64,000 bases of DNA from Acidobacteriota bacterium (GCA_963666055.2 CAXWPH010000015.1:1248001-1312000), one strand, 5' to 3'. Positions 4,454 to 60,843 are shown, counted from the first letter of the stretch. Program-made: numbers and translations. The notes: generated from the sequence alone by a model not told the origin.

Positions 4454-6463
4454 CTAGTGATCCGGTTGGGCTAGTCCGGTAGGTAGCGCCACGGCGGCGA
4501 GCGAACCGGAGTGGGCCGGCCCGCCTATGGGCAGCACGATGTACTGCCTGCCCTCGTGCATGTAAGTCATCGGCGCGCTGTTGCTCTGCGCCGGGATATC
4601 CACCGTGCCGAGTCGCTCGCCGGTGAGCTTGTCGACCGCGTGCAACAGTGGAGCGCCGCGGCGGCCCTCGGCGTAGATGAGCAGTGTCTTGGTAATCACC
4701 TTGGTGGCGTGCGACGGCTTGCCGGTGTTGGGGATATCGAGGCCTTGCAGTGCCGGGTGATGGATAATCGACTCGGGTGTGTCGCCGTTGGGGATCCACC
4801 ACAGATGCTCGCCGGTGTTCAGATCGATCGCCGTGATACGACCGTAGGGCGGCTTGAGGTAGGGCAGTCCCTGGACCCGGCCAGGCCCGACGCTCGGTCC
4901 GCTCGCCCACGCCATGACTGTCTTGCCGATCGGGTTGGGATCGTTGGCATCTGCCTCGATGCCGGGGATCAGCGATTGCCCGGAGCAGGTCTTGGTAGAC
5001 GCGACGTAGAGGATCTGGGTCTGCGGGTCGACCGCTGCTCCTCCGGGGATGTTGGTGCCGCCGCCCCCACCGGGGCAGATCAATGAGGTCTTGAAGCCCA
5101 GGTTGTTGTCGCGGTGTAGCGGTGGGTTGAAGAGCGGGCCGAGCTGGAATTCGCTGAGCATCTCTACCGCCGCCTGCCGGAGCTCTGGCGTGAAGTCGAT
5201 CAGGTCGTCCTCGGTGACGCCCTGCATCTCGTACGCTGCCGGCCTCGTCGGGAACGGTTGCGTCGGCGATGTTTGCTCCCCGGGGATCTTCGACGACGGA
5301 ACCGGGCGCTCCTCGATCGGCCATACCGGCTCGCCGGTCTCACGGTTGAGCACGTAGGCGAAGCTCTGCTTGGTCGTCTGTACCAACGCCGGGATCTTCT
5401 TGCCGTCGACGGTGATGTCGACGAGGTTCGGCGCGGTGGGGTTGTCGTAGTTCCAGATGTCGTGATGCACGGTCTGGAAGTGCCAGCGGCGCTCACCCGT
5501 CTTGATGTCGACGGCGATGATGGAGGTGGCGAAGAGGTTGTCGCCGGGAGAGAAGCCGCCCCAGTAGTCGTTAGTCGGCGGATCGGTGACGAAGTAGACC
5601 AGCCCGAGCTCCGGGTCAGCGGCCATCGGTGCCCATGCCGAGACGTTGCCGGTGTACGACCAGGCATCGCTTTCCCAGGTGTCGTGGCCGAACTCGCCGG
5701 GCTGCGGGATAACGTTGAACTTCCACAGGTGATCGCCAGAACGCGCGTCGTACGCCAGCACGTGCCCGGGCACGTTCTCGCGTCGGGTCTGCCGGTAACC
5801 CTGCTCGTGCGAGTTGCCCACCACCACCACGTCGTTGACCACCATCGGCGGCGAGGAGTTGGTGATGTAGCCGGTTTCCGTGGGAAGCCCCTCGTAGGCG
5901 TCGTACTCGTAGCCGAGGTCGGCCAGCAGATCTACGGTGCCCTCGTTGCCGAACTGCTCGATTGGCTTTCCGGTGACGGCGTCGAGCGCGTGCAGGAAGA
6001 AGCCCGGCGAGATCATGTAGATCACACCGCGGCGGTCGATGTTGGCGTACCCGACGCCCTTGCCATAGTTCTTCCGCATCGAGTCTTCCCAGCGCGGCGT
6101 GTAGGGCTCGCGGTAGGTCCACAACGTCTCGCCGGTGGCCGGATCGATAGCGACGACCGTGCGCCGCTGACCGGCGACGGTGTACAGCACCCCGTTCGCG
6201 TAGGTCGGCGTGGAGCGCATGATGTTGTCCACCGAGGGGCCGTAGTTGTCGCCCCGCCACACCCAGGCGACCTCGAGATCCTCGAAGTTGTCGGCGTTGA
6301 TCTGGTCGAGCGGCGAGTAGCGTGTGCTGAAGGTATCGCCGCCCCAGTGGCGCCATTCGCCGTTCTCGGTACCAGTGCTCGATCCGCCGTTCTGACCGAC
6401 CGCAGGCATCGACATCAAGCACAGGGTGAGCGCAATCGCGGCGCCCATCGCAGGTTTCGTCAT
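4454..6463 (-). CDS. PQQ-dependent dehydrogenase (quinoprotein glucose dehydrogenase-like), periplasmic
   Basis: TRYSPLDQINADN, WHFQTVHHDIWNYD, SPTQPFP, KPPYGRITAIDL, PMTYMHEGRQYIV motifs; ATG 6463 overlaps upstream stop. Confidence 0.9.
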   Translation of the reverse strand: MTKPAMGAAIALTLCLMSMPAVGQNGGSSTGTENGEWRHWGGDTFSTRYSPLDQINADNFEDLEVAWVWRGDNYGPSVDNIMRSTPTYANGVLYTVAGQRRTVVAIDPATGETLWTYREPYTPRWEDSMRKNYGKGVGYANIDRRGVIYMISPGFFLHALDAVTGKPIEQFGNEGTVDLLADLGYEYDAYEGLPTETGYITNSSPPMVVNDVVVVGNSHEQGYRQTRRENVPGHVLAYDARSGDHLWKFNVIPQPGEFGHDTWESDAWSYTGNVSAWAPMAADPELGLVYFVTDPPTNDYWGGFSPGDNLFATSIIAVDIKTGERRWHFQTVHHDIWNYDNPTAPNLVDITVDGKKIPALVQTTKQSFAYVLNRETGEPVWPIEERPVPSSKIPGEQTSPTQPFPTRPAAYEMQGVTEDDLIDFTPELRQAAVEMLSEFQLGPLFNPPLHRDNNLGFKTSLICPGGGGGTNIPGGAAVDPQTQILYVASTKTCSGQSLIPGIEADANDPNPIGKTVMAWASGPSVGPGRVQGLPYLKPPYGRITAIDLNTGEHLWWIPNGDTPESIIHHPALQGLDIPNTGKPSHATKVITKTLLIYAEGRRGAPLLHAVDKLTGERLGTVDIPAQSNSAPMTYMHEGRQYIVLPIGGPAHSGSLAAVALPTGLAQPDH

Positions 6464-7344
6464 CGCATTCCACCTCCTGAAACGGACACCGGCACGTACC
6501 CATTCGTCCAGCAACATTGATCACCTGAACTGCTGTCGTTGGCAGCCCAGTTGTCCACCCGGACGCGAAGCACATAGTCGCCGGCTTCGCTGAACGTCGC
6601 GGTTGTAATCGCTTCGCCTATGCCCTCCTCCAACACGATCTCGCGATCCTCGAACACCACCGCGCCGGGGGGGCCTTGATGTTTGAACCAGGTCAGCTTC
6701 ACCGCGACACCATCCCTGTTCGCGGTGTCGTGGTCAAACCGTTCCGAGATCTCGCTAGCCCATACCGTCAGCGCTAGCGGGCTTCCCACCGTCGCGACCC
6801 GTGGCTGGTTCAGCCTGACACCCGTAGGGTGCTGGCCCTCCATCCCGTTGGGCTCAAGCCTCAATAGAGGTGGTACGGACCCCATACCCCGCGGTCCGTA
6901 GTCGAGCTGAAGGGCGTCGATTCCCACCCTTGCCGGCACCGAATAGGTCACGCCGTTGGCACGGATGGTCCACACAACTCGCCGCTCTCCATCTCCATAC
7001 GACGCTGGCACCGTCACCGTGAAAACACCCCTGTCTCGGCGTGGATCGACCGGGAAGTGCGTCGGCTGCTCACCATTGAACACGGCTGGTTCGACGAAGT
7101 TATCCGGCCCGATGGGAATCTCGAGTATCTCCTCCAAATTCAAGTTGAAGTACCCGAACGAGAACGTGTAGGTGCCGTCTGAGTTCGCGTACCAGCCTTC
7201 AAAGAACGGAGCTACCGGTTCGCCTGCTGGTGGTCGCGGCGCCAGCGGAAGCCGCTGCACCTGCTGTGCCCCGACAGGTGCCGAGCTCATGATGGCGGCG
7301 ATCAGCGCCAAGCAAGGACTGACCCGGAGCAGGCGGCCCTTCAT
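6460..7344 (-). CDS. Conserved secreted hypothetical protein with C-terminal Ig/PKD-like domain
   Basis: Signal peptide; PFFEGWYAN..FSFGYFN, QPTHF, FSEAGDYVLRV, QCCWTNGYV; ATGA overlaps at both ends. Confidence 0.8.
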   Translation of the reverse strand: MKGRLLRVSPCLALIAAIMSSAPVGAQQVQRLPLAPRPPAGEPVAPFFEGWYANSDGTYTFSFGYFNLNLEEILEIPIGPDNFVEPAVFNGEQPTHFPVDPRRDRGVFTVTVPASYGDGERRVVWTIRANGVTYSVPARVGIDALQLDYGPRGMGSVPPLLRLEPNGMEGQHPTGVRLNQPRVATVGSPLALTVWASEISERFDHDTANRDGVAVKLTWFKHQGPPGAVVFEDREIVLEEGIGEAITTATFSEAGDYVLRVRVDNWAANDSSSGDQCCWTNGYVPVSVSGGGMR

Positions 7345-8696
7345 CTCTGAGCTGCCACCTCTGCGTTTGCTTTCCTGTTGGCAACCTGTTGCTCGTAGCC
7401 CGCCTCGTCCAAGTGGGTTACCGCAAGCCAGGCGTGCGACATCTCGTCCATCGTACGGGCGCCTCGCGCATACCAGATTTCTGGATCGGGATTCAGCGGG
7501 TTGTTCTCCGTGTTGTCGTACCACGCGGTGATAACCAAGACGGTACCCGTGGGCAACAGCGGAGCCGCGTCGTCCTCATAGATATAACTGTGGTGCCATC
7601 TGGCGTTGAAGTTGGTCACCATGCTCAAGAGTTCCTGCGAGCCATCCGGATAGATCGCCCGCATGGATTTCGCATGAAGATGCACATGCCCGTGGGGCTG
7701 GAAGCTGTCGATGCGGACCGGATGATCCCAACGGTGGAAGCCCTGGGTCATCGCGGTTCCACCGGGTGCCAGGGCAATATCACCGTCCAGACGGTACATC
7801 GCCAGGTCTTGTGTGAACTCCGGCTCGTAGTCCTCGGGATATAACCAGAGGCCAAGCTCGATCTGATCGTCCTCGACGACATAGCCCATCGGGTAGTAAT
7901 GCACGTCCCATTCGATTAGCGCGTTCACCGGCAGCAAACGGGCTGCGTCTGACGGGATGATCTCGCCGATCTTGCCCATGGCATATTCCGAGAGCATCGC
8001 CGTCCGGACCCATTCACCATCCTCGTCCTGGGTCATTAATCTAGGGATGGCGTGGTGCACGACTTGACGGCCGGCGGGGAAGGAAGGCCGTATTTCGAAG
8101 GCCCGAATCAGCCTGTCCGCGTTGAGCCCCGTCTCCACTCTCGGACGCCACCAGATGTCGCCTCCCTCGGCCGGCACCGTATAGGGTCTCGACTCGATGA
8201 CGTGATCCGGCTCGCCCAGCTGGTCTTCGAGCTGCCACTTGTTGCCCTCCGGCCATTCCACCGGGGGCGGCATATCCGCCACGTCCCCCCTCGGCGTGCC
8301 GCTATCCACCCATGCGACGATGGTCTGGATCTGTTGCTCACTCAGCCTCCAGTCGTTCTTGATTGCCTGGATCCCGACACGTGTATCGAGGTGATACGGA
8401 GGCATTTCCCTGGCGGCCACCTGATCCTTGATCCGTGTTGCATAGCGTTTAGCCTGAGCATAGGTAAGAAGAGACATCGGCCCGACTGAGCCCGGCCGAT
8501 GGCAGATCTGACAGTTCTCCTGCAGAATCGGCGCCACGTCCCGAGTAAACGAGACAGCGTTTCCCTCGCCCGACACTGACTCATCGGACTGCTGCATCGA
8601 GAAAGCGTCGCCGCGGAAAGTCAGTAGGAAGAGGAGCGCTAACAGACAGGTCCCCAATAGCCCTGGATGCCTTGCGCGTGCCGATTTGTTGCCCAT
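7341..8696 (-). CDS. Cytochrome c fused to copper type II (PHM/DBH-like) monooxygenase-like domains
   Basis: Signal peptide; CQICH heme motif with distal MPP; VVHH, PHGH and DEM candidate Cu ligands. Confidence 0.75.
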   Translation of the reverse strand: MGNKSARARHPGLLGTCLLALLFLLTFRGDAFSMQQSDESVSGEGNAVSFTRDVAPILQENCQICHRPGSVGPMSLLTYAQAKRYATRIKDQVAAREMPPYHLDTRVGIQAIKNDWRLSEQQIQTIVAWVDSGTPRGDVADMPPPVEWPEGNKWQLEDQLGEPDHVIESRPYTVPAEGGDIWWRPRVETGLNADRLIRAFEIRPSFPAGRQVVHHAIPRLMTQDEDGEWVRTAMLSEYAMGKIGEIIPSDAARLLPVNALIEWDVHYYPMGYVVEDDQIELGLWLYPEDYEPEFTQDLAMYRLDGDIALAPGGTAMTQGFHRWDHPVRIDSFQPHGHVHLHAKSMRAIYPDGSQELLSMVTNFNARWHHSYIYEDDAAPLLPTGTVLVITAWYDNTENNPLNPDPEIWYARGARTMDEMSHAWLAVTHLDEAGYEQQVANRKANAEVAAQR

Positions 8697-8872
8697 GATG
8701 CGCCCTCCTGACAGAAAAGACTGGCGTCGCATTTTGGCCGCCCACGTGAAGCAGGCTAGATGTCGATCATCGCGACCGTCAAGGGACGTTGTAAAATCGC
8801 CGGGGTCGTGATACCGCTCGTTGTGGCAAATGGAAGGAACTGCAGTTTCAGGCTCGACGGATGGAGGGTGGC

Positions 8873-10420
8873 ATGAGCAAGCGAGACACGGGCGAAACAA
8901 ACGGTGCGGAGACCAAACTGAGTCGCCGGACCTTCGCAAAGACCTCGGTCGCCGCGGGTACCGCGGCTGTTGCCCTGCCTAACACGTTGCTCAGCGCGAC
9001 CCCGGCCAAGACCGCCGCGACGAAGGCAACCTACGGTCGCGCCGTCCGTGTCGAGATGCGGGACGAAGGCTTTGGATACGGCGGTAGGGGTGCGCCTCCC
9101 TTGACCGCCCCGGTCCCCCGCACCGCCAGCGTCAACGGCTGGAAAGAGGGCACCACGATTCCCGCCGAGTACTACTTGGACGCAAAGCACTTCGCCGCCG
9201 ACGAGGCGTTCGTGGCGGAGAACTTCTGGCAGTACACCGATCAGGCGAGCCGTATTCCGAATCCCGGCGATTTCTACGTGTTCGAGTTCGGGCGCTCCGA
9301 ATCTATTCTGATCGTCCGCGGACAGGACAACGAGATAAGAGGCTTCTACAACGTCTGCCGCCACCGTGGCTCGCGACTGTGCCGCCACGACGCGGATGCC
9401 AAACCGAGCGACCCGCGCCTGTCGGTCAAGCAACTTGGTCAGAGCGGTAGCTCACCGGTGTTCCGCTGCCCATACCACGCCTGGACGTACGACACCGAGG
9501 GCAGCCTCATCTACGCCTACGGCATGCAGGACGATTTCGACCCGGCGGACAACGGCCTGATTCCCTGCCACTTGCGGGTCGCCGAAGGCCAGGTTTTCGT
9601 CAATCTCTCGAAGTCGGACACGCCGCCGGACTTCGAGTCGGTTGCGAGCCGACTTGGTGCTCTGGCCGACAAGTGGAGCCTGAAGGATCTGAAGGTCGTG
9701 GCCCGTGAGTACTACCCGATCAACGCCAACTGGAAGCTGGCGCTGGAGAACTTCAAGGAGTGCTACCACTGCGGGGCAGCGCATCGACCGCTGGTAACGA
9801 CCCACAACTGGGACAACGACGTCACCGACGAGCAGAGGGCCGAAAGGGCCGCTGCGGTTGCCGCGTGGGTTCCAGAGAAGAACCGGCGGCGGCGGCAGCA
9901 GCCCGCATCAACCGGCATGGGTGGCGAAGGCATGGACGGCGAAGGCATGGACGGCGAAGGCATGGACGACACTCCCGCCTACGGGAGCATGGGCGGGTTG
10001 CTCAATCCCGGCTTCGTCACCGGGTCGATCGATGGCAAGCCCGTGTCGATACTGTTGCCCAACATCACGGAGTGGAACCATGAGACCGGCGGCACCACGA
10101 CATTCGAGTCGACGGGCTACTGGCAAACCTACGACGATCACGTTGCGGTAGCACGGTTCACGCCGCGATCGGAGAAGTTCACCGATTGCGAGATCGTCTG
10201 GTTAGTGCATCCCGATGCCGTCGAGGGTCGCGACTACGATCCCGACAACGTGAAGGCGCTGTGGCACGTCACCATCCAGGAGGACATCTGGATCACCGAC
10301 AACAATCACGCGGGCATCGAGTCTAGCGCCTACGCCGCTGGGCGCTACTCCACCCACGAGGGCGGCCCCTCCCGCTTCATCGACTGGTACATGAAGGAGG
10401 TCGTCAAGGTCGGGGACTAA
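8873..10420 (+). CDS. Rieske non-heme iron oxygenase alpha subunit (GbcA/choline monooxygenase-like) with Tat signal
   Basis: SRRTFAK twin-arginine motif; NVCRHRG...CPYHAWTY; NWKLALENFKECYHCGAAH; QEDIWIT; GGAGGG RBS before ATG 8873. Confidence 0.9.
   Translation: MSKRDTGETNGAETKLSRRTFAKTSVAAGTAAVALPNTLLSATPAKTAATKATYGRAVRVEMRDEGFGYGGRGAPPLTAPVPRTASVNGWKEGTTIPAEYYLDAKHFAADEAFVAENFWQYTDQASRIPNPGDFYVFEFGRSESILIVRGQDNEIRGFYNVCRHRGSRLCRHDADAKPSDPRLSVKQLGQSGSSPVFRCPYHAWTYDTEGSLIYAYGMQDDFDPADNGLIPCHLRVAEGQVFVNLSKSDTPPDFESVASRLGALADKWSLKDLKVVAREYYPINANWKLALENFKECYHCGAAHRPLVTTHNWDNDVTDEQRAERAAAVAAWVPEKNRRRRQQPASTGMGGEGMDGEGMDGEGMDDTPAYGSMGGLLNPGFVTGSIDGKPVSILLPNITEWNHETGGTTTFESTGYWQTYDDHVAVARFTPRSEKFTDCEIVWLVHPDAVEGRDYDPDNVKALWHVTIQEDIWITDNNHAGIESSAYAAGRYSTHEGGPSRFIDWYMKEVVKVGD
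9923..9967 (+). repeat. 3 x 15-bp perfect tandem repeat GGCGAAGGCATGGAC (GEGMD)
   Basis: Directly visible at 9923, 9938 and 9953. Confidence 0.95.
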
Positions 10421-10472
10421 GGCGCGCCGAGCCCCCCTGGGTACGACTTAGAGCTCGAGACGGAGGAGTGTC

Positions 10473-11714
10473 GTGAGGCCAATCACGCGGGCGATCGCGA
10501 TTCTGCTGGTGCTGGCGTTGTCGGTTGCCTGTACGCCACAGCCGGCCTCCGAGCCCGCCGAAGCCACTGCGGAGCCGGGCTCCGACCAAGCCGAGCCAGC
10601 GGAAGGCGAGGAGCAGGGCGAGCCGGAAGTGGATCCTGAGCTGGCCATCATTCGGCTGGACCCGAACGACGAGAACCTCGAGGTGTGGAGAGATCGAGAC
10701 ATCTCGGACGATCCACCACGAGAGCCCGGACCGGTTGGAATCGGGGCGGCCCTGAGCTTCTTCCGGCTGCCCATCGCGGTGACCGTCGAGGACCTGATCG
10801 CTGGCGAAGTGGAGGTGGCGTTTATCGGAGCCCCGGTCGACATGGGGGTCGGCTATCGAGGCGCTGGCGAGGGACCCACCGCGATGCGCGCGCTCCGGCG
10901 CGGCGTCGGCAGCATGGAGACGATGATCAGCTGGAAGGAGGAGCTGAAGGCCGTGGACTACGGCAACGCGCCCATCGACAATCTGAGCGTCGAGCGCAGC
11001 ATGCCACCGATTCGGCGGATGGTTCGGGAGATCGCCGAGACGGGGGCGATTCCCATCATCATCGGCGGCGATCACTCCATCGAGTTCGCCAACGTTGCCG
11101 GGCTCGCCGACGTGTACGGCAAGGAGAACGTCGGCGTCATCCACTTCGATGCTCACTACGACGCCGGCGGCACGCGCAGCGGCCACCTGATCTCCCATGC
11201 CCAGCCGGTACGTCGGCTCGTCGACGACGGACACGTCCTCGGCCGGAACTTCATCCAGGTGGGCCTTCGGGGCGCCTGGCCGGGGGAGGCCGGATTCGAG
11301 TGGATGCGGGCCAACAACCTTCGCTACCACACGATGGCGGAGATCAATCGCGATGGTTGGGGGGCCGTCATGGAACGGGTTCTCGACGAGGCGAACGACG
11401 GGCCGGAGTACCTCCACATCTCCTTTGACATCGACGTCATGGACCCGGCGTACACCGAGGGAACAGGTACGCCGGTGCCGGGCGGCCTGATGCCCCGCGA
11501 GGTGTTCCCCCTCATCCGCGGCCTCTGCGCCGAGAACAACGTCGTTGGATTCGACCTGGTCGAGTTGAACCCTCTCCTCGACCCCGGCTACACGACCGTG
11601 CTCAACTCCAAACAAGTTGTCGACGAGTGCCTGACCGGGATTGCGATGAAGAAGCTAGGGCTCAGCGGCAGGGACTACCTGAGCCCGCTCACGGCGACCG
11701 ACGGCCGGCGGTAG
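10473..11714 (+). CDS. Agmatinase/ureohydrolase family lipoprotein
   Basis: Lipobox LSVAC; GGDHS, HFDAHYD, SFDIDVMDP, GTGTP motifs. Confidence 0.9.
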   Translation: MRPITRAIAILLVLALSVACTPQPASEPAEATAEPGSDQAEPAEGEEQGEPEVDPELAIIRLDPNDENLEVWRDRDISDDPPREPGPVGIGAALSFFRLPIAVTVEDLIAGEVEVAFIGAPVDMGVGYRGAGEGPTAMRALRRGVGSMETMISWKEELKAVDYGNAPIDNLSVERSMPPIRRMVREIAETGAIPIIIGGDHSIEFANVAGLADVYGKENVGVIHFDAHYDAGGTRSGHLISHAQPVRRLVDDGHVLGRNFIQVGLRGAWPGEAGFEWMRANNLRYHTMAEINRDGWGAVMERVLDEANDGPEYLHISFDIDVMDPAYTEGTGTPVPGGLMPREVFPLIRGLCAENNVVGFDLVELNPLLDPGYTTVLNSKQVVDECLTGIAMKKLGLSGRDYLSPLTATDGRR

Positions 11715-11794
11715 CAGGCCGAGTCGCGGGCCCGTCGCGAATGAGTGAGACGAGGTCGGAACCCTCGTCAGTTACTGACCCAGTGAGGCTCCAA

Positions 11795-13534
11795 ATGCAC
11801 CCGCAACGTGCCCTCATTTTTTCACTGACTCTGCTCACGACCCTCGTCTCTGTCGCCTGCAGCGATCCCGCCGATGAGACGACCCCCGCCACTCACGCGG
11901 ATTTGGTTGTCGTCAATGCCGACGTTCGTACCGTTGACCCAGCCATTCTTGCGGCAGAAGCGTTTGCCGTCGGAGATGGCCGGATTATCGCTATTGGCTC
12001 GACCGTCGAGATCGCTGCGCTCGCTGGCGACACAACCACGGTCGTCGACGCGGCTGGCTCAACGGTAATACCGGGTCTTGTCGACGGACATACTCACCTT
12101 GTTGGCGGCGCCGGGCTGGCCGTCGGTGTTGATCTGTCCGAAATAGAAGACAAGAGCGAATGGCTGCGCATCATTCGGGACAAAGCCCAAACTCTGCCCG
12201 ATGGCGCGTGGATCCTGGGCGGCGCCTGGGACCACAATCTCTCCGACGGTGTGTTGCCGACAAAGGAGATGCTCGACTCCGTCGCCCCCGACAACCCGGT
12301 GCTTCTCTGGGACATTGATCATCATTCGAGCTGGGCCAATAGCCTCGCCATAGAACTCGCCGGCGTGACGGCCGACAGCCCCGTGCCGACGGGCGGTCAA
12401 ATACTGGTCGACTCGACCACCGGTGAGCCCACCGGAGTGTTTCTCGAAACTGCAGCGGCGCTGTTCGACGATGCACCGGGCCTACAGGAAGCAGCGGACC
12501 CCGAAGCCGGAATCAGGGCGGCTGTGGCGCTTGCGAACAGCTATGGGATTACTAGCGTGCACGACATGAGCGGCAACCATGACGCGTTCCTGTCGGTCAT
12601 GAAGGATGGGGCTCTGACGGTACGAATCTGGCAGGGAGCGTTCTCAAACAATGCGAGCGCCGAGTCAGCCGTACAGTTTTTCCGCGATCTAGACGTCGAG
12701 AGAAGCCGGCTGCGGGAGACGATCGCGGAGTTCACTGGAACGAAGACAACCGGGCCGCTATTCGAGCTCGGCTATGTGAAACTGATGATCGATGGTGTTC
12801 TTTCTACGCACACCGCGTTGATGAAAGAACCGTACGCCGACAACCCGGAGGCGCAGGTCGAGCCATTCGTCAGTCGCCAGGATCTGGACACTATGGTGGC
12901 AGCGGCACACGACGCTGGCTTTCCGGTAGCAGTGCACGCCATAGGTGATGAGGGGGTGTCCTGGGTGCTGGATTCGTTCGCCGCGTCGCCGAGGCCGCCC
13001 GGTGTGCCGATAGATCGCGTCGAACACATAGAGGTCGTCACTCCTGATGATGTGCAGCGATTCAGCTCACTCGGTATAGCGGCCTCCATGCAGCCGCATC
13101 ACGCCACCTGCTGCGTCGGTAGCTACGTGGTCGATCGCATCGGCCCAGATCGCCTGCCGAATGCATATGTGTGGCGGCAAATGCTGGACAACAACATTCC
13201 CCTGGTGCTTGGGTCCGACTGGCCGACTTCTCCATTGAGTCCGCTGATCCAGATCGCCGATACGCTACACCGTGAAACCCAGATCGATGGTGCCGTTCGA
13301 CCGTGGGATGAGGGCAATAGGCTGACGTTTGAGGAAGCGCTGCACGGTTACACCCAAGCCGGCGCGAACATGACGGCCTGGGGCGATGAAATCGGCAGCA
13401 TTACCGTTGGCAAGTGGGCCGATTTCGTCATTCTCGATGAGTTGCTATCCGCTGAGGCCGACCGCAGCATCGAGAATCGCCGGGTGACGGCAACCTACCT
13501 CGCCGGCCGGCAGGTCTATCCGAGAGACCCATAG
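11795..13534 (+). CDS. Amidohydrolase 3 (YtcJ-like), lipoprotein
   Basis: PGLVDGHTH, KLMIDG, HAIGD, RVEHIE, GSDWP, GSITVGKWADF; lipobox VSVAC. Confidence 0.9.
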   Translation: MHPQRALIFSLTLLTTLVSVACSDPADETTPATHADLVVVNADVRTVDPAILAAEAFAVGDGRIIAIGSTVEIAALAGDTTTVVDAAGSTVIPGLVDGHTHLVGGAGLAVGVDLSEIEDKSEWLRIIRDKAQTLPDGAWILGGAWDHNLSDGVLPTKEMLDSVAPDNPVLLWDIDHHSSWANSLAIELAGVTADSPVPTGGQILVDSTTGEPTGVFLETAAALFDDAPGLQEAADPEAGIRAAVALANSYGITSVHDMSGNHDAFLSVMKDGALTVRIWQGAFSNNASAESAVQFFRDLDVERSRLRETIAEFTGTKTTGPLFELGYVKLMIDGVLSTHTALMKEPYADNPEAQVEPFVSRQDLDTMVAAAHDAGFPVAVHAIGDEGVSWVLDSFAASPRPPGVPIDRVEHIEVVTPDDVQRFSSLGIAASMQPHHATCCVGSYVVDRIGPDRLPNAYVWRQMLDNNIPLVLGSDWPTSPLSPLIQIADTLHRETQIDGAVRPWDEGNRLTFEEALHGYTQAGANMTAWGDEIGSITVGKWADFVILDELLSAEADRSIENRRVTATYLAGRQVYPRDP

Positions 13535-13914: not shown

Positions 13915-16233
<2,319 letters not shown>

Positions 16234-24618: not shown

Positions 24619-24852
24619 GTGTTCGTTGTCTGGCTCGTGCACCCGGACGCTCGCGAGGGCATCGACTTCGATCCCGACAACGTCAAGGCGCTCTGGCACG
24701 TGACGATCCAGGAGGACATCTGGATCACCGAAAACAACCACGCCGGCATCGAGTCCGGCGCCTACACAGCAGGTCGATACTCCAGCCACGAGGGCGGCTG
24801 CTCCGGTTTCATCAGCCGGTACATGAAGGAGATCGTCACGGCTGGGGACTAA
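24619..24852 (+). pseudogene. C-terminal fragment of a third Rieske oxygenase paralog
   Basis: WLVHPDAREGIDFDPDNVKALWHVTIQEDIWITENNHAGIES nearly identical to the C-termini of the genes at 8873 and 57476. Confidence 0.85.
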
Positions 24853-50128: not shown

Positions 50129-50281
50129 TGGGCGATTGTTGGCGGGAGGCGCCCTAGCGGCTCGTATCCCGGGGGTATTCACGATGACCCAAAACGCGTT
50201 TCCTCTCTCGTCGAACAGTCCGGACGGCGCGAAAGACGATCGGCCGTGAGCAGCGCCGATACAAGAACCGGGAGCCGAGCC

Positions 50282-51205
50282 ATGCGTTGTCGTTTCAGCA
50301 GATTTGTGATCGTGGCGTCGAGCCTCGTGGCCGTGTCGGCCGCCGGGTTTGCCGGTGGCCATCCCCAGAGTGAAGGACCACGCGCCGTCGAGCCTCGGGC
50401 GGCAGCCGTCCAGTCATCAACTCGATCGGCGTTTCACAGCGAAGATGTGTACGCGCTCAGGGCGGTCGGACAGGTCGATGTTTCATCTGACGGCACCCGA
50501 CTGGCGTACAGCGTCCGGCACACCGACCGACCGGGGTACCCGTACACCCGGACATGGATCCTGGAGATCGCGACCCAGCGGTTGATCCGGCTCGGGTCCG
50601 ACGAGGAGAGTGTCTCGAATCCTCGCTGGTCGCCGGACAGTCAGCGAATCGCGTACGTCAGTCGGACGGCCGAAGGCTCGGGGGTGGCAGTCGCCGCCCG
50701 CGATGGGAGCGGCGGAACCGTGCTCGCGCCCGTCGTCGGGACCAACCACCACTTCGGTTACGCGCCGGTGGTCGGCGAGCCGCTGGCCTGGTCTCCGAAC
50801 GGCAATCAGATCGCCTTCGTGTCCGCGACGCCGGGTCCTGAAACGGAGGCGGCGAGCGGGGATCCGATGGTCATCACCCGCTATCTCTACAAGCCGGCCG
50901 GCTGGGAAGGGTCGACACGGTTTAACGACAACCGCCGCCTTCACCTCTTCATCGTGGATGTGGCGACGAAGCAGGTGCGGCAGCTGACCACGGGCGAGTA
51001 CTACGAGCATTCTATGGAGTGGTCGCCGCGCGGTGACGAACTCGTCTTTCTCTCCAACCGCGAACCCGACCCCGACCGCGTGTTCAACTACGACATCTTC
51101 ACGGTGAAGGTGAGCGATGGTGGCGCTCGCAGACTGACCGAGACGAATAACGCCGAGTTTCGTCCAGTCTGGTCTCCCGACGGCGAGACTATCGCCTATC
51201 TCGGA
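50282..51205 (+). pseudogene. S9 (dipeptidyl/acylaminoacyl) peptidase N-terminal propeller; catalytic domain lost
   Basis: Signal peptide; PRWSPD, WSPNG, HLFIVD..VRQLT.G, WSPDGETIAY; ends abruptly. Confidence 0.7.
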
Positions 51206-51224
51206 CTCTCAGGGCCGGGCATCG

Positions 51225-51548
51225 GTGGTGGCCTTCCTGAAAGACTCAGAAATGAATGCTTGGCGGGCAAGCGGCCAGTCCCTTGCAGACTATTATCTGC
51301 CACTGGTCCAGGCGGAATACCCGGCGCTTACGCCTGACGCAGTTGACGACGTGGTGGTCCGGGGCGGCGATGACCTGGTCATAATATCCACAGGATTGCC
51401 AAGTGCCATGGCCGATTTTGTCCGGGAGCAGGAGAAAGATCGGCGCGGATTGTATTTCACCGGCGAATACCTGGGCCATGCGCACACGGGTGGTGCCTGC
51501 GCCAGCGGCCGTACAGTCGGGCGCAGCATTGCTAAACATTGGGCCTGA
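51225..51548 (+). pseudogene. C-terminal fragment of an FAD-dependent amine oxidase/protoporphyrinogen oxidase-like protein
   Basis: GLYFTGEYL...GACASGR. Confidence 0.6.
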
Positions 51549-51576: not shown

Positions 51577-53252
51577 TTAGATCTCGTTGAAGTACCCGTA
51601 GTTCCGAGGCACCAATTCGGTCGCGGCACGATAGCCTTCGTCCATCGCCGCCTGCGCGAGGCTCAGGCCGGCCGCGTCGGAGTTCGCGATGGTGATCCTC
51701 CCGAACGGCTGATGACCCACGACCGTGGGGTGGTTCTCGCCCGTCCACTCGGCGGGATCGAACAGCGCGTTGGTTCCCATCGCGAACCCGTGCGGCCAAC
51801 GATTGATCGTGATGGCCTCGATGTCGCGGGCGGGATCGAAACCGCCGGGCGAGAGGACTCGCGCGAGCTGCTCCCGGATCCGACGCTCGAAGTCCTCGAA
51901 CGAGGTCCCCAACATATGGGTCCGAAGCGCCGCGAGCTGCTCCCGGAGCGGAGTGCCGGGCGCGGGTGGATTGCCGCCGAACAACTCCCGAACCATGGTG
52001 CTGTGGTGCAGAACACCGGACGGGCTCTGCAATCCCACCAGCGCGGGCTTAGCAGGGTCGAGCTCCGGCCGGTATGTGCCGAAGTGCCTCGGTGTACGGA
52101 GATTGAACGTGTTGTAGAACATCCCCGGGCTGTCCACTCCGGTAATGCCCAACCGTTCGAACGACGTCCAGGTCCGAACCAAGACCGTGGTCATCATGTT
52201 CACCGCCCGGTCGGCGAGGAGGAGTGCCTCCCGCTGCTCGTCGGGTAACTCCGGACAGATGTACGGAATCATCGAGTTGTCGCAGGCGAGAATGGTCCCC
52301 TTCGAACGAACCCGGTACAGCCTGCCCGCCCGAACATAGGTAACTTCGGTCTCCCGATCGTCCGTGCGCAGGCGGCCGACGGGTGCCTCGCCCAGATGCT
52401 TGACCTGAACGGCGATGCTGTTCAGCCGGATCCTCACCGGCGTGCTCGGCTCGTCGAGCTTGGAGTAGTCCGCGCGATCCAGGACAACGTCCGCCATTCG
52501 GCCCGCCGGCAGGACGGCCGGAATCAGAGAGCGAACGATGAGTCGCGCGATGTCGGAGTTGCGCGCTCCGACACGGGCGTCCGCACGAGGAAGTCGTGCG
52601 TCGGTTGCGAAAGACCGCCACCCGTGACCAGGCGGTCCTCCCCGAACGTCTCCCGGTCGAAGAACGTCCCTCGCACCATCCCCCGGCTACGGAACGCGCC
52701 TGAATCCACTATGTTTGTGGGCTCGTCGAGCTCGACACCGATATCGCGGAGCATGGCCATGACCGGCGCGGGGTAGGTCATGGCCCGAACCATGTAGGAC
52801 GACCCCCCGTTCGAGATCAGCGTCCCCGCACTTGTCTCGAACTCGTTTCGCTTGGCGTGGCCGCCGAAGTCGTCGTGATTGTCGAGGATCAGGATCCGAG
52901 CTTCCGGACCCGTCATCTGACGATAGAAGTACGCCGCGGCCAGACCGCTGAAGCCACCTCCGACGACGATGGCGTCGTAGCTTTCGTCGACAGTTGCCGC
53001 GCCTTCCCAGTTGGCACCGTCGCGCGTCCTGTGTGCCGCCTCGAAGGACCCCGGATGGGCCCCGCGCATCCCTGTTCGGAGAGGCGGGTAGCTCTCGGCG
53101 TCACCTGGTCTGACCTGAAGCGACGTCGGCGCCGGGGGCCGGGTGATTCCCGGGATCACCATGGCTCCACCCACCACGGCGCCGACCCCCGCAACGAAGT
53201 CCCGACGCTTGATCGGTCGATGCATCCCCAATGCGCGATCGTTGTCGTTCAT
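51577..53252 (-). pseudogene. Spermidine dehydrogenase (SpdH)-like Tat flavoprotein, broken by an internal deletion/frameshift at about 52562
   Basis: KRRDFVAG Tat motif; YPPLRTGMRGAHPGSFE; VGGGFSG; DNHDDFGGHAKRNEF; ITINRWPHG; GRITIANSDA. Confidence 0.82.
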
Positions 53253-54057: not shown

Positions 54058-54075
54058 GGGTGGTTTCGTGCCCCG

Positions 54076-54137
54076 TGGACCTTCGCATGTCCTGACGATA
54101 GGCTTCAAGCGCTCATCCACCCTTCTGCGGTAGCGCC
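54076..54137 (+). promoter_or_regulatory. Repeated sigma70-like promoter/leader (TGGACC-N17-TAGGCT...GGTAGCGCCATG)
   Basis: Homologous copies at 57734-57795 and 60781-60843; partial copy at 46592-46631. Confidence 0.55.
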
Positions 54138-55820
54138 ATGGAACCCGGCATCAAACTAGGCCCCTACGAGATCACCGAGCAGCTCGGCGCTGGCGGCATG
54201 GGCGAAGTGTCTCGAGTACGCAATACGACGCTGGATCCTGATGTCACTAGCGAGAGAAGGAGTCGGCTGAATCAAACCGTCAGTCGAACGATTGCCGGCA
54301 TCGCTTGCGTGGCGGTAGTGGCGTGCAGCAGCGGCGGAAATCCCTACGCCGACAAGTTCACCGACGTTGATCCGGCCTGGGCGGTCACTGCCGACGAGGG
54401 CTACGAATGGGCGCTGGTCAAAGATGCCAACCTGCCGGCGATGACCGGTAGCCCGGAGTGGAACAACTACGTCGGGTTCCTGGAGGACAAGCTCCGGGAA
54501 TACGGCGTAGTCGACATGCACCGCAACAGCTGGACGTACGATCGCTGGTCCACGACGAAGGACAACAGTGGCTGGTCGTTGGTGTCAGACGGGGCGCCGG
54601 TACGCGTGGCTCATTACGCCATGAACTCCGGCAGCACCGGCCCGGAGGGGATCACGGCGGAGATGATCTACTACGACCACGATAATCCGCCCGACTCCAT
54701 CGAGGACAAGATCGTGGTGTTTCCGACGCGGCCGCACCCGGAACCTCCCTACGACGACTACTACATCAAGAACTTCACCTTCAACGACTACGAGTGGCGC
54801 GCCAATGACGACACGTACTGGGAATTGTTCCAGTTCGTGCCACCGGAGTTCAGCATCACCTTCGATATCTGGTGGCAGCTGCGGCAGAGTTTATGGCGCA
54901 TCGCAGTAGAGGGAGGCGCAGCGGGTCACGTCACCGTCTACGACATGGCCTTCGGGCGTAGCGAAGGACTGGTGGCCCGACCGATACCTCCTCTGTATGA
55001 GTTGCCGGGACTATCTCTGAGCCGTGAGGACGGGGCCAAGGTGATCGCCGATGCCAAAGCGGGCAAGACCGCCACGCTGCGGCTGGAGGCAACCGTCGAG
55101 GCATCGGAGGCCTACCAGACGATCTCGTACCTGCCGGGTCGCGACTACGGCACCCCGGGGGACGAGCAGATCCTGTTGATCAACCACACAGATGGCCCTT
55201 CGATCACGCAGGACAACGGTGCGCTGGGTCTGCTGGCGATCGTCAAGTACTTCTCCAACATCCCGCAGGAGCACCGGCCGCGAACGCTCACCGTCTTCCT
55301 CGACAACCGGCACTACTATCCGGGGCAGGAGCGCGCGGCGCACGAGGTGAGCTGGCTGGAGCGCTATCCCAAGGCCAAGGACCCCCTGGTGGGCATCATT
55401 CAGACCGAGCACATGGGCGAGAACGACTACCGCGAGGCGGACGGCGTGGTCGAGCCGGTGGGACTGGCCGAGCAGTCGTACCTCTGGTCGCGCAACAATC
55501 AGGTGCTCATCGACGCCGCGGTTGCCGCCGCCCAAGTGCATGGCTGGGAGCGCGTGCAAGTGGTGGTACCCGAGCGGCCGGGAATCAACGGCGGCCTGCA
55601 ACAGGTGTGGTGGGGGGTTGGATCCCGGGCTCTGCGCGGCTGCCCGCAGTGCCTCGATCTGCCCGGCTACGGCCTCGGCGGGTTTCTTGGTCTGTATTGG
55701 ACGACGGCGAGTGGGATCGAGCGCTGGAACAAGGACCTGTTCGAGGATCAGGCGCACACGATGACGCAGCTGACCGGTGTGTTGATGACTGCTGATCTCG
55801 ACGAGATTCGACCCGAATAG
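54138..55820 (+). CDS. PA-domain/M28 peptidase-like lipoprotein preceded in frame by a Ser/Thr kinase N-terminal stub
   Basis: First ~36 aa MEPGIKLGPYEITEQLGAGGMGEV...TTLDPDV; then VVAC lipobox, NHTDG, QDNG, TEHMG. Confidence 0.75.
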   Translation: MEPGIKLGPYEITEQLGAGGMGEVSRVRNTTLDPDVTSERRSRLNQTVSRTIAGIACVAVVACSSGGNPYADKFTDVDPAWAVTADEGYEWALVKDANLPAMTGSPEWNNYVGFLEDKLREYGVVDMHRNSWTYDRWSTTKDNSGWSLVSDGAPVRVAHYAMNSGSTGPEGITAEMIYYDHDNPPDSIEDKIVVFPTRPHPEPPYDDYYIKNFTFNDYEWRANDDTYWELFQFVPPEFSITFDIWWQLRQSLWRIAVEGGAAGHVTVYDMAFGRSEGLVARPIPPLYELPGLSLSREDGAKVIADAKAGKTATLRLEATVEASEAYQTISYLPGRDYGTPGDEQILLINHTDGPSITQDNGALGLLAIVKYFSNIPQEHRPRTLTVFLDNRHYYPGQERAAHEVSWLERYPKAKDPLVGIIQTEHMGENDYREADGVVEPVGLAEQSYLWSRNNQVLIDAAVAAAQVHGWERVQVVVPERPGINGGLQQVWWGVGSRALRGCPQCLDLPGYGLGGFLGLYWTTASGIERWNKDLFEDQAHTMTQLTGVLMTADLDEIRPE

Positions 55821-57476: not shown

Positions 57477-57795
57477 GCCGTCGCCCCGCGCTGCTTGGCT
57501 AGTCCGTGTTGACGTTGCTCCGATGCCGAGATCCTAGTCTGCTCCGATATTAGGCTCGTTCACGACCGATAGCCACGGGTCACCTGCCGGGTCGGTCTGG
57601 GTCAGGACAACGACCCCCGTTTCAGTTGCCCCGGTAGCGCGCCCGGCGGGCGGGACGGCCGCAGATTGAGCAGGTGGATACCGGAAGCGCCGGAGCCCAC
57701 GGGATCCGACGCTGACCAAGTTGAAGACGCCGTTGGATCTCGCCCGCTCCGGCGATAGGCTTCACCCGCTCACCCACCTCCCTCCTGGTAGCGCC

Positions 57796-57903
57796 ATGGA
57801 ACCCGGCACCAAACTAGGCCCCTACGAGATCACCGAGCAGCTCGGTGCGGGCGGTATGGGTGAGGGTGCCGTGGGTGTCCGCCTGCGTGGGTCGCTCCTG
57901 TAG
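57796..57903 (+). pseudogene. Ser/Thr kinase N-terminal stub
   Basis: MEPGTKLGPYEITEQLGAGGMGE then diverges and stops. Confidence 0.8.
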
Positions 57904-60712: not shown

Positions 60713-60843
60713 CTGCCGACCGTCGGTGGCGCGCTGCAGCACCCTGCTACGGGCGATTCATGTCACGACGGCACCTTCCGTGGATCCCCAAAGGCTCTGG
60801 CGATAGGCTTCAGGGTGCTCACCCACACCCCGCTGGTAGCGCC

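What the first reader, a model, noticed from the sequence alone, without database searches (positions are those of the whole stretch)
4454..13534. Divergent cluster that could be a self-contained periplasmic oxidation pathway for amine or guanidino substrates
Seen: one ~175-bp divergent intergenic region separates (left) cytochrome c-Cu monooxygenase-like, Ig-like and PQQ dehydrogenase genes from (right) Tat Rieske oxygenase, lipoprotein agmatinase and lipoprotein amidohydrolase genes. All six carry export signals. Known: PQQ dehydrogenases pass electrons to cytochrome c in the periplasm, and both oxygenase types need reductant. Inference: PQQ to heme c to Cu/Fe oxygenase electron flow outside the cytoplasm. 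An SpdH-like gene and a second Tat Rieske gene co-occur again at 51.5-57.5 kb.
Basis: inference. Interest (0 to 1): 0.75.

Follow-up and report, generated by a model that had tools for sequence, protein, structure and literature searches.

The report
Exported Rieske oxygenase, borrowed neighbours
The six genes are real and carry export signals, but they are likely two separate modules that happen to abut in this genome rather than one pathway; the notable one is an iron oxygenase with an export signal and no usual reductase partner, which likely draws its electrons from periplasmic cytochromes and amine dehydrogenases instead of NADH.

Summary
The anatomy is confirmed: six intact genes with export-type N-termini and a 176-bp divergent gap. 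The self-contained cluster is not supported. The gap is two upstream blocks that travel separately. In three well-assembled congeners the halves lie 3.8 kb, 6.4 kb and 423 kb apart, and the amidohydrolase ortholog was not found in any of them. Three other Acidobacteriota carry the Rieske clade without the copper enzyme, two the reverse. pqqC was not found in 4 of 4 genus genomes.

Two real modules remain. (1) A haem c/PHM-fold copper monooxygenase with an Ig-like partner (adjacent in 21 of 21 outside loci). (2) A Tat-signal clade of Stc2/GbcA-type Rieske oxygenases (16 copies here) with no canonical reductase found. Its usual neighbours are SpdH-like flavo-haem dehydrogenases (5 of 14 loci adjacent) or a small cytochrome c (next gene in 11 of 13 distant loci; complex prediction weakly supportive, 0.57 against 0.00).

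The scan noted both modules earlier on other DNA; my literature searches found no description.

The parts
4454..6463 (-). Secreted PQQ-type beta-propeller dehydrogenase (glucose/quinate-like), 669 aa; loosely attached third gene of the left module
   Evidence: PF01011 605 bits; below the TIGR03074 cut-off, 355 vs 833; AGGAGG before ATG 6463; a 91%-identical, frameshifted copy stands without Cu/Ig genes on C7
6460..7344 (-). Secreted tandem Ig/PKD-like protein, 294 aa, with an invariant C-terminal QCCW vicinal cysteine pair; constant partner of the copper enzyme
   Evidence: Model pLDDT 76, best fold hits are tandem Ig domains with low TM-scores; Atlas PKD-like clusters; QCCW in 30 of 31 rows; adjacent to the Cu enzyme in 6 of 6 copies here and 21 of 21 outside loci; fused to it in L024
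7341..8696 (-). Secreted cytochrome c domain fused to a PHM/DBH-fold two-copper monooxygenase, 451 aa
   Evidence: C62xxC65H66, M98, H214, H215, H266, H335, H337 and M419 invariant in 60 sequences; model pLDDT 85, top fold hits PHM (E 1.5e-11) and dopamine beta-hydroxylase; no Pfam or NCBIfam hit
8697..8786 (-). Upstream block that travels with the copper-enzyme gene (likely its promoter; ends just past a conserved TTGACG)
   Evidence: Conserved upstream of the ortholog in G002, G003 and G004, homology ending at 8786; promoter role inferred, and this site was not returned by the consensus scan
8787..8872 (+). Upstream block that travels with the Rieske gene (likely its promoter and ribosome site)
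   Evidence: Conserved upstream of the Rieske ortholog in G002, G003 and G004, homology starting at 8787
8873..10420 (+). Tat-signal Rieske non-haem iron oxygenase alpha subunit of Stc2/GbcA type, 515 aa; one of 16 full-length copies in the genome
   Evidence: PF00355 + PF00848; C162, H164, C199, H202, E296, C297, H299, C300, H304, D471 invariant in 50 sequences; closest structures 3N0Q and the 3VCA/4QUP entries; twin-arginine motif in 16 of 16 genome copies
10473..11714 (+). Lipoprotein ureohydrolase (arginase/agmatinase superfamily), 413 aa; substrate not assigned
   Evidence: PF00491 242 bits; GGDH, DAHYD, SFDID motifs; below the agmatinase cut-off, 138 vs 174; best PDB hit 7ESR/7OI1; moved to the other side of the PQQ gene in G002
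11795..13534 (+). Lipoprotein metal-dependent amidohydrolase (Amidohydro_3), 579 aa; not a conserved member of the locus
   Evidence: PF07969 309 bits; ortholog not found in G002, G003, G004, and without the other five families in 16 kb of G001
24619..24852 (+). C-terminal remnant of another Tat-clade Rieske gene
   Evidence: 69% identical to residues 421-515
51577..53252 (-). Broken SpdH-like flavo-haem dehydrogenase gene (two ORFs, 300-bp internal deletion)
   Evidence: Comparison with the G002 ortholog; orthologs have open frames of 661-714 aa
55944..57476 (-). Second intact Tat-signal Rieske oxygenase, 510 aa, 62% identical to the first

Best explanation
The stretch is likely two independent exported modules left back to back by gene shuffling, not one pathway, and its twin-arginine Rieske oxygenase likely works in the periplasm on electrons passed by haem proteins encoded elsewhere. 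Left module: a haem c-fused PHM-fold copper monooxygenase (fold and ligands shown) whose own haem likely replaces ascorbate as reductant, with an Ig-like QCCW partner; the PQQ-type gene is an optional companion. Right module: an Stc2/GbcA-type oxygenase with intact metal ligands (shown), predicted to be exported folded by Tat. It likely O2-dependently N-demethylates or cleaves a methylated or quaternary amine (inferred from clade only). With no reductase found, electrons likely come from amine oxidation by SpdH-like FAD/haem b dehydrogenases and reach the Rieske cluster through a small monohaem cytochrome c docking between two subunits (inferred; weak structural support). The two modules may share that cytochrome pool, so they are probably parts of one cell-wide periplasmic redox network without forming a dedicated unit. 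The ureohydrolase and amidohydrolase are likely passengers from the same expanded amine-scavenging repertoire.
For: Independence: homology to congeners breaks at 8786/8787 in 3 of 3; halves 3,817, 6,353 and 422,557 bp apart; Rieske next to a Cu enzyme in 1 of 16 copies here, the finding itself, and within 500 bp in 1 of 66 congener loci; G061, G255 and G340 have the Rieske clade and no Cu-enzyme match, while G012 and G125 have 6 and 33 Cu-enzyme matches and no Rieske-clade match. Export: motif in 111 of 120 homologs by pattern, 14 of 17 clade loci against 0 of 145 non-clade loci; an intact tatC. No reductase: PF00175 gives only Fpr-like and PyrK-like genes, PF14759 0 of 5 genomes, GbcB-type HMM within 4 kb in 0 of 17 clade loci against 32 of 145 controls. 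Partners: SpdH-like gene adjacent in 7 of 16 (5 of 14 after removing duplicates; local null p 0.03-0.001) and within 500 bp in 21 of 66 congener loci against about 1.5 expected; small cytochrome c is the next gene in 11 of 13 distant loci and within 600 bp in 0 of 145 controls; an SpdH-Rieske(-Rieske)-cytochrome run in L100 and L217. Both haem-ligand histidines of SpdH are conserved. Complex prediction for G340's pair: 0.57, best control 0.00, partner pLDDT 89, runs agreeing in at least 90% of contacts; weak support.
Against: No activity, localisation or expression data. The halves remain within 6.4 kb in 2 of 3 congeners, Rieske-to-Cu-enzyme distance is at most 8 kb in 7 of 66 congener loci against 1.9 expected, and Cu/Ig genes lie within about 2 kb of a Tat Rieske in 3 of 13 distant loci, so some functional link may exist. 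SpdH was not found in G061 or G340, so it is not obligatory. In this genome none of the four clear small-cytochrome homologs lies beside a Rieske gene. Thermodynamics look uphill: the cytochrome has His/Met ligation, usually well above oxygenase Rieske potentials (recalled), and the Rieske lacks the bc1-type serine (PMC12445004, section 7). The three cytoplasmic Rieske genes here also show no GbcB-type neighbour, and only 22 of 74 fully flanked control loci have one, so the missing reductase is less diagnostic than it looks. Both mismatches that passed in the complex tool's calibration scored 0.60 or under. Loci are related, so counts are not independent.
Confidence: 0.55

Rival explanations
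1. One reading: the six genes form a self-contained pathway in which the PQQ dehydrogenase feeds the fused haem c, which reduces both the copper and the Rieske oxygenase.
For: Halves stay divergent and within 3.8-6.4 kb in G004 and G003, and the ureohydrolase stays beside one half in 3 of 3 congeners. An Ig-Cu fusion lies directly upstream of a Tat Rieske in L024, and Cu genes lie close in L023, L103 and L191. A cytochrome c-PQQ-Ig-Cu run exists on C6.
Against: Exact adjacency in 0 of 3 congeners; separate upstream blocks; modules decoupled across genomes; no PQQ-type gene within 1.5 kb of the Ig gene in 21 of 21 outside loci; pqqC not found in 4 of 4 genus genomes while the control rang; amidohydrolase not conserved.
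Confidence: 0.1
2. Electrons flow the other way or bypass a donor: the exported Rieske protein acts as a dehydrogenase or desaturase passing electrons to cytochrome c and respiration, or works as a peroxide-driven oxygenase.
For: Rieske-to-His/Met-cytochrome transfer would be downhill (potentials recalled). The cytochrome is the most constant neighbour (11 of 13). CntA supports a peroxide shunt without reductase (PMC10952381, passages). No canonical reductase was found.
Against: The O2-activating iron ligands, bridging glutamate and group V cysteine pair are all invariant, as in demethylases that consume two electrons. I know no precedent for a Rieske oxygenase alpha subunit as a cytochrome reductase (recall). 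No H2O2-producing partner was identified.
Confidence: 0.17
3. The exported Rieske enzymes are reduced from the cytoplasm or the quinol pool through a membrane relay (DsbD/CcdA-like, NapC-like or another reductase), and the haem neighbours serve only to oxidise the products.
For: It would solve the redox-potential problem. SpdH is absent from two genomes with the clade. Product-oxidising enzymes would also cluster with the oxygenase.
Against: I recognised no membrane relay among the neighbours listed, though most neighbours were not run against Pfam and I did not search the genome for such relays. The predicted Rieske-cytochrome complex passed weakly.
Confidence: 0.13
4. The twin-arginine peptide is not used for export (for example a membrane tether), and the enzyme is an ordinary cytoplasmic group V oxygenase using Fpr and ferredoxin.
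For: The genome has an Fpr-like and a small 2Fe-2S ferredoxin-like gene about 3 kb apart; export was not tested.
Against: R18, R19 and F21 are invariant with a conserved hydrophobic stretch; the motif is in 0 of 145 non-clade relatives; neighbours are exported haem proteins; tatA-like and partial tatC genes flank one Rieske-SpdH unit.
Confidence: 0.05

Closest known systems
Group V Rieske oxygenases: stachydrine demethylase Stc2 (identified with PDB 3VCA/3VCP from recall), glycine betaine monooxygenase GbcA, carnitine monooxygenase CntA (6Y8J)
   Same: Rieske plus catalytic domain; cluster and iron ligands; bridging glutamate; the CxxC pair matching Stc2 Cys202/Cys205 (PMC10952381 passages).
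   Different: N-terminal twin-arginine signal; an insertion of about 17 residues between the cluster-binding loops; a separate clade (SH-aLRT 100, stem 0.99); below the GbcA cut-off (229 vs 670); no cognate NAD(P)H reductase found; cytochrome c or SpdH-like neighbours instead; 16 copies in this genome.
Peptidylglycine alpha-hydroxylating monooxygenase (PHM) and dopamine beta-hydroxylase
   Same: Two-domain fold (E 1.5e-11) and six invariant residues in the pattern of the two copper sites.
   Different: Bacterial, 10-13% identity, fused N-terminal haem c, constant Ig-like QCCW partner, substrate unknown.
Pseudomonas aeruginosa spermidine dehydrogenase SpdH (PDB 7D9F-7D9J)
   Same: E 1e-121 over the full length; RRxF N-terminus; His54 and His562 haem b ligand positions conserved.
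   Different: About 33 paralogs in this genome, substrates unknown; the window's copy is broken; a role as donor to an oxygenase is only inferred.
PQQ-dependent glucose/quinate and quinohaemoprotein alcohol dehydrogenases
   Same: PF01011 beta-propeller, secreted.
   Different: Below all NCBIfam cut-offs; WNYD where 1YIQ has WDYT (that aspartate's catalytic role is recalled); no fused haem; pqqC not found in the genus.
Ureohydrolases (agmatinase, guanidine hydrolase, proclavaminate amidinohydrolase, guanidinobutyrase)
   Same: Arginase fold with the binuclear metal motifs.
   Different: Lipoprotein-type N-terminus; below the agmatinase cut-off; scores to several ureohydrolases are similar (141 to 109 bits), so 'agmatinase' is not established.

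Membership tests
Self-contained conserved gene cluster | Same adjacency in other genomes | tested here: not met
   Direct adjacency in 0 of 3 well-assembled congeners; 3.8, 6.4 and 423 kb apart
Self-contained conserved gene cluster | Shared divergent control region | tested here: not met
   Two abutting blocks, each inherited with its own gene; one consensus promoter match straddles the junction but its -35 half is absent upstream of the congeners' Cu-enzyme genes
Self-contained conserved gene cluster | Members co-occur across genomes | tested here: not met
   Rieske clade without Cu enzyme in G061, G255, G340; Cu enzyme without Rieske clade in G012, G125
Self-contained conserved gene cluster | Co-expression | not testable with these tools
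   No RNA holder was listed
Group V Rieske oxygenase (Stc2/GbcA/CntA) | Rieske CxH...CxxH motif and two-His, one-carboxylate iron site with bridging acid | tested here: met
   Invariant in 50 sequences; roles assigned by alignment to solved structures and recall
Group V Rieske oxygenase (Stc2/GbcA/CntA) | Cysteine pair beside the iron site | tested here: met
   C297/C300 invariant, aligned to Cys202/Cys205 (PMC10952381)
Group V Rieske oxygenase (Stc2/GbcA/CntA) | Cognate NAD(P)H flavin reductase | tested here: not met
   Not found by PF00175, PF14759 or a GbcB-type HMM; genome 95.7% complete
Group V Rieske oxygenase (Stc2/GbcA/CntA) | No export signal (cytoplasmic) | tested here: not met
   Twin-arginine motif in 16 of 16 copies and 111 of 120 homologs, 0 of 145 non-clade loci
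GbcA equivalog NF058607 | Score above 670 bits | tested here: not met
   229 bits
Group V Rieske oxygenase (Stc2/GbcA/CntA) | Quaternary amine substrate | not testable with these tools
   Inferred from tree position only
PHM/DBH copper monooxygenase | Two-domain PHM fold | tested here: met
PHM/DBH copper monooxygenase | Five His and one Met copper ligands | tested here: met
   H214, H215, H266, H335, H337, M419 invariant; matched to PHM's ligands by sequence pattern and recall, not by coordinates
PHM/DBH copper monooxygenase | Pfam copper-monooxygenase domain hit | tested here: not met
   No family at E 1e-4
PHM/DBH copper monooxygenase | Ascorbate-dependent hydroxylation of peptidylglycine or catecholamine | not testable with these tools
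   No assay
PQQ-dependent dehydrogenase | PQQ beta-propeller domain | tested here: met
   PF01011 605 bits
PQQ-dependent dehydrogenase | PQQ supply by canonical pqq genes | tested here: not met
   pqqC 0 of 4 genus genomes, positive control 420 bits; pqqB-like only 113-119 bits against a cut-off of 245; scavenging is not excluded
PQQ-dependent dehydrogenase | Catalytic aspartate | tested here: inconclusive
   WNYD aligned to WDYT of 1YIQ; an aspartate lies two residues later
Agmatinase | TIGR01230 cut-off | tested here: not met
   137.6 vs 174.3 bits
Ureohydrolase superfamily | Binuclear metal motifs | tested here: met
   GGDH, DAHYD, SFDID; PF00491

The most novel reading that the evidence does not exclude
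These Acidobacteriota run Rieske oxygenase chemistry in the periplasm with no NAD(P)H at all: the exported oxygenase demethylates a quaternary amine, an SpdH-like FAD/haem b dehydrogenase oxidises the resulting or a related amine, and a small cytochrome c returns those electrons in place of ferredoxin, closing a redox-neutral loop. The same cytochrome pool also powers haem-fused PHM-like copper monooxygenases, giving a cell-wide extracytoplasmic oxygenase network.
Probability: 0.27. Interest if true: 0.87.

Novelty: new variant of a known kind. Interest (0 to 1): 0.6.

Why it matters
Rieske oxygenases are described as fed by a flavin reductase, often through a ferredoxin (PMC12445004, passages). 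An exported clade wired to cytochromes would be a new electron supply for this enzyme class. It would allow NAD(P)H-free or electrode-driven biocatalysis, and it would place breakdown of betaine-like or polyamine nitrogen outside the cytoplasm in uncultured Acidobacteriota, where products could be shared. The three-protein sets in L100 and L217 make this directly testable. The six-gene cluster itself is a poor test object, because its membership is unstable.

Tried and rejected
1. Shared bidirectional promoter: rejected, two separately inherited blocks.
2. Assembly artefact at the junction: rejected.
3. PQQ gene as a fixed third member: adjacent to 2 of 6 Ig genes here and 0 of 21 outside loci within 1.5 kb.
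4. SpdH as the obligatory donor: not found in G061 and G340.
5. High-potential bc1-type Rieske tuning: no serine at the position the review names; a clade-wide cysteine (C232) could not be measured against the cluster because no Rieske model was built.
6. Expression: no RNA holder listed, no conclusion drawn.
7. Literature: searches returned no paper describing an exported Rieske oxygenase or a haem-fused bacterial PHM; two candidates read in passages (10.1101/2021.05.19.444901, PMC12314914) do not describe one. The library lacks most subscription papers, and no supplements were read.
8. The first pqqC search had no working control and was repeated with one.
9. The careful tree did not finish; the quick tree is used.
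11. The scan's earlier notes by place in this genome and in relatives returned nothing.


Full report
OBSERVATION. The six genes are at the stated place and are intact. With starts refined by ribosome-binding sites, the minus arm is cytochrome c-Cu enzyme 7341-8696, Ig-like 6460-7344 and PQQ-type dehydrogenase 4454-6463, each overlapping the next by 4 bp. The plus arm is Rieske 8873-10420, ureohydrolase 10473-11714 and amidohydrolase 11795-13534. The gap is 176 bp. Export signals were judged by eye and hydropathy, not by SignalP. Contigs from 3 of 4 runs laid (2 studies; one may be the source) bridge the gap, the Rieske-ureohydrolase join and the ureohydrolase-amidohydrolase join, so the arrangement is real. 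Names on close homologs point to Acidobacteriota.

HOW SURPRISING IS THE JUXTAPOSITION. Every family is expanded in this 5.7-Mb genome: 16 full-length Tat Rieske genes, 35 SpdH-like ORFs, 21 PQQ-type, 11 Cu enzymes, 6 Ig-like, 32 amidohydrolases and 10 ureohydrolases among 4,659 genes called by my own simple gene finder. By a crude rule, 19 runs of six or more signal-bearing genes exist. A Tat Rieske has a Cu-enzyme neighbour in 1 of 16 copies and a ureohydrolase neighbour in 1 of 16, both this locus; at least one such case arises in about 6-7% of random placements.

SYNTENY. Orthologs were traced in four congeners. In G004 and G003 the two arms are still divergent but 3,817 and 6,353 bp apart, with Tat-signal M24 and S15-family hydrolase genes between them; G003 also has 3.7 kb between Rieske and ureohydrolase. 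In G002, the closest genome, the Cu-Ig-PQQ run is intact, the ureohydrolase has moved to its other side, and the Rieske ortholog is 422,557 bp away; a 79% paralog is 21 kb away. G001 is fragmented and gave no close ortholog of the Cu enzyme. The amidohydrolase ortholog was found only in G001, without the other five families in the 16 kb read. DNA homology ends at 8786 for the left arm and begins at 8787 for the right arm in all three genomes: the gap is two blocks, each inherited with its own gene. That they are promoters is inferred; the consensus scan returned one different site that straddles the junction.

DISTRIBUTION. The Rieske clade was found in 8 of 401 Acidobacteriota genomes (E 1e-120, only four candidates scored per genome) and the Ig-like gene in 22 of 301. 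G061, G255 and G340 (100, 95, 92% complete) have the clade and no Cu-enzyme match; G012 and G125 show the reverse. The halves therefore do not need each other.

The arms stay close in 2 of 3 congeners. Rieske-to-Cu distance is at most 8 kb in 7 of 66 congener loci against 1.9 expected under uniform placement, though within 500 bp in only 1 of 66 (the 66 are the clade matches after I dropped weak, cytoplasmic-type and fragment rows). Cu or Ig genes lie within about 2 kb of a Tat Rieske in L023, L024 and L103. The small cytochrome family described below sits in a cytochrome-PQQ-Ig-Cu run on C6 and near a Cu-Ig pair on C12. A shared electron carrier is thus plausible at the level of the cell.

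LEFT MODULE. The 451-aa protein has no Pfam or NCBIfam hit. Its model (pLDDT 85) matches PHM and dopamine beta-hydroxylase. CxxCH, M98, five histidines and M419 are invariant in 60 sequences. The Ig-like protein folds as beta-sandwiches resembling tandem Ig domains with low TM-scores, carries QCCW in 30 of 31 rows, and is adjacent to the Cu enzyme in 6 of 6 copies here and 21 of 21 outside loci (21 of the 30 loci fetched, same-genus loci left out). It is fused to the enzyme in L024. Inferred: the haem supplies the copper sites, and the cysteine pair handles copper or electrons. The PQQ-type gene is optional. pqqC was not found in 4 of 4 genus genomes while a Pseudomonas control scored 420 bits, and the pqqB-like hits are below cut-off, so PQQ would have to be scavenged.

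RIGHT MODULE. The Rieske protein is closest to 3N0Q and the 3VCA/4QUP entries and keeps all cluster and iron ligands and the group V cysteine pair (PMC10952381, passages). Thirty-one clade sequences form one group (SH-aLRT 100, stem 0.99) among GbcA/Stc2-type relatives in a quick tree of 60 rows. A twin-arginine motif is in 16 of 16 genome copies and 111 of 120 homologs by pattern (two of these matches fall at the wrong place, and most misses look like late start calls). It is in 14 of 17 clade loci, the three misses being cut or split ORFs, and in 0 of 145 non-clade loci. An intact tatC is present, and tatA-like and partial tatC genes flank one Rieske-SpdH unit. No canonical reductase was found: the two PF00175 genes read as Fpr-like and PyrK-like by my inspection, PF14759 is absent from 5 of 5 genomes, and a GbcB-type profile hits within 4 kb of 0 of 17 clade loci against 32 of 145 controls. 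Caveat: the cytoplasmic Rieske genes of this genome also lack such a neighbour.

WHAT TRAVELS WITH IT. In the genus, SpdH-like genes: adjacent in 7 of 16 copies against 0.24 at random and 4% for other expanded families; 5 of 14 after removing two identical duplicates, p 0.03 to 0.001 under local shuffles; within 500 bp in 21 of 66 congener loci against about 1.5. These proteins match P. aeruginosa SpdH and keep the His54 and His562 positions, which PMC12564564 (passages) gives as ligands of a surface haem b that accepts electrons from FAD, with a catalytic onset of -0.14 V against Ag/AgCl (about +0.06 V on the hydrogen scale by my conversion). Outside the genus, a small His/Met monohaem cytochrome c is the next gene in 11 of 13 loci, 8 co-directional and 3 convergent. 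I classed loci as outside the genus by identity and neighbours, left out five as same-genus and L107 as too short; several of the 13 are related. L100 and L217 read SpdH, Rieske, cytochrome in one direction. G061 and G340 have the cytochrome but no SpdH match. Two Rieske subunits of G340 with their neighbouring cytochrome and haem scored 0.57 against 0.00 for the best of three controls, partner pLDDT 89, runs agreeing in at least 90% of contacts. The mark was reached by 116 of 157 solved complexes and 2 of 215 mismatches, but at 0.60 or under by only 18 solved ones and both mismatches, so this is weak support, and it concerns another genome's pair.

MECHANISM. Shown: intact metal sites, export-type signals, no canonical reductase found, haem-protein neighbours. 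Inferred: Tat export of the folded iron-sulfur protein; docking of cytochrome c at the subunit boundary, where ferredoxin binds in solved systems (PMC12445004, passages); amine oxidation by flavo-haem dehydrogenases as electron source; N-demethylation or C-N cleavage of methylated amines. The main weakness is energetic: His/Met cytochromes usually sit well above oxygenase Rieske clusters (recalled), and the clade lacks the bc1-type serine (PMC12445004, section 7). Reverse flow, a peroxide shunt and a membrane relay therefore remain live rivals.

NOVELTY. Eight literature searches found no description of either module; most subscription papers and all supplements were out of view. The scan noted both on other DNA (e1-782963, e1-3891518, e1-1437569); these are unchecked notes, and the counts above are my own.

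Noticed in passing
window 51577-53252 (-): The SpdH-like gene is split into two ORFs and lacks 300 bp present in the G002 ortholog; likely a pseudogene.
   Followed up: yes
window 54061-54260, 57731-57828, 60794-60876: A stretch of about 140 bp covering the upstream region and first codons of a Ser/Thr kinase gene gives 100 BLAST matches in the genome; at 54138 it is fused to an unrelated lipoprotein-like gene. It could seed the gene shuffling seen in this genus.
   Followed up: partly
G000:C2:401688-407122 and G002:C9:2059140-2063844: tatA-like and partial tatC genes sit directly downstream of a Rieske-SpdH unit; this Rieske gene occurs as three identical copies in G000 (C2 twice, C6), one beside a transposase-like gene.
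   Followed up: partly
whole genome G000 and congeners: About 21 PQQ-type dehydrogenase genes but no pqqC match in 4 of 4 genus genomes: cofactor scavenging or a different cofactor.
   Followed up: partly
L012 9532-13418, L013 5834-9602: Tat-signal creatinase/M24-like and S15-family hydrolases lie between the two arms in G004 and G003; an exported creatinase-like enzyme fits periplasmic use of guanidino compounds.
   Followed up: partly
G000:C12:461415-465164: A small cytochrome c and a gene that looks like an NHL-repeat propeller by eye face a Cu enzyme-Ig pair, echoing the lyase partner of animal amidating enzymes; not run against Pfam.
   Followed up: no
G125: 33 matches to the haem-copper monooxygenase profile in one 6.5-Mb genome.
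   Followed up: no
window 14032-16233 (+): A catalase-peroxidase gene follows the amidohydrolase; it was not seen beside the orthologous loci in G002, G003 or G004.
   Followed up: partly
window 50246-51337 and 60760-63198: Genes for a peptidase-like propeller and a kinase with propeller repeats appear truncated or split, as do several others in the window.
   Followed up: no
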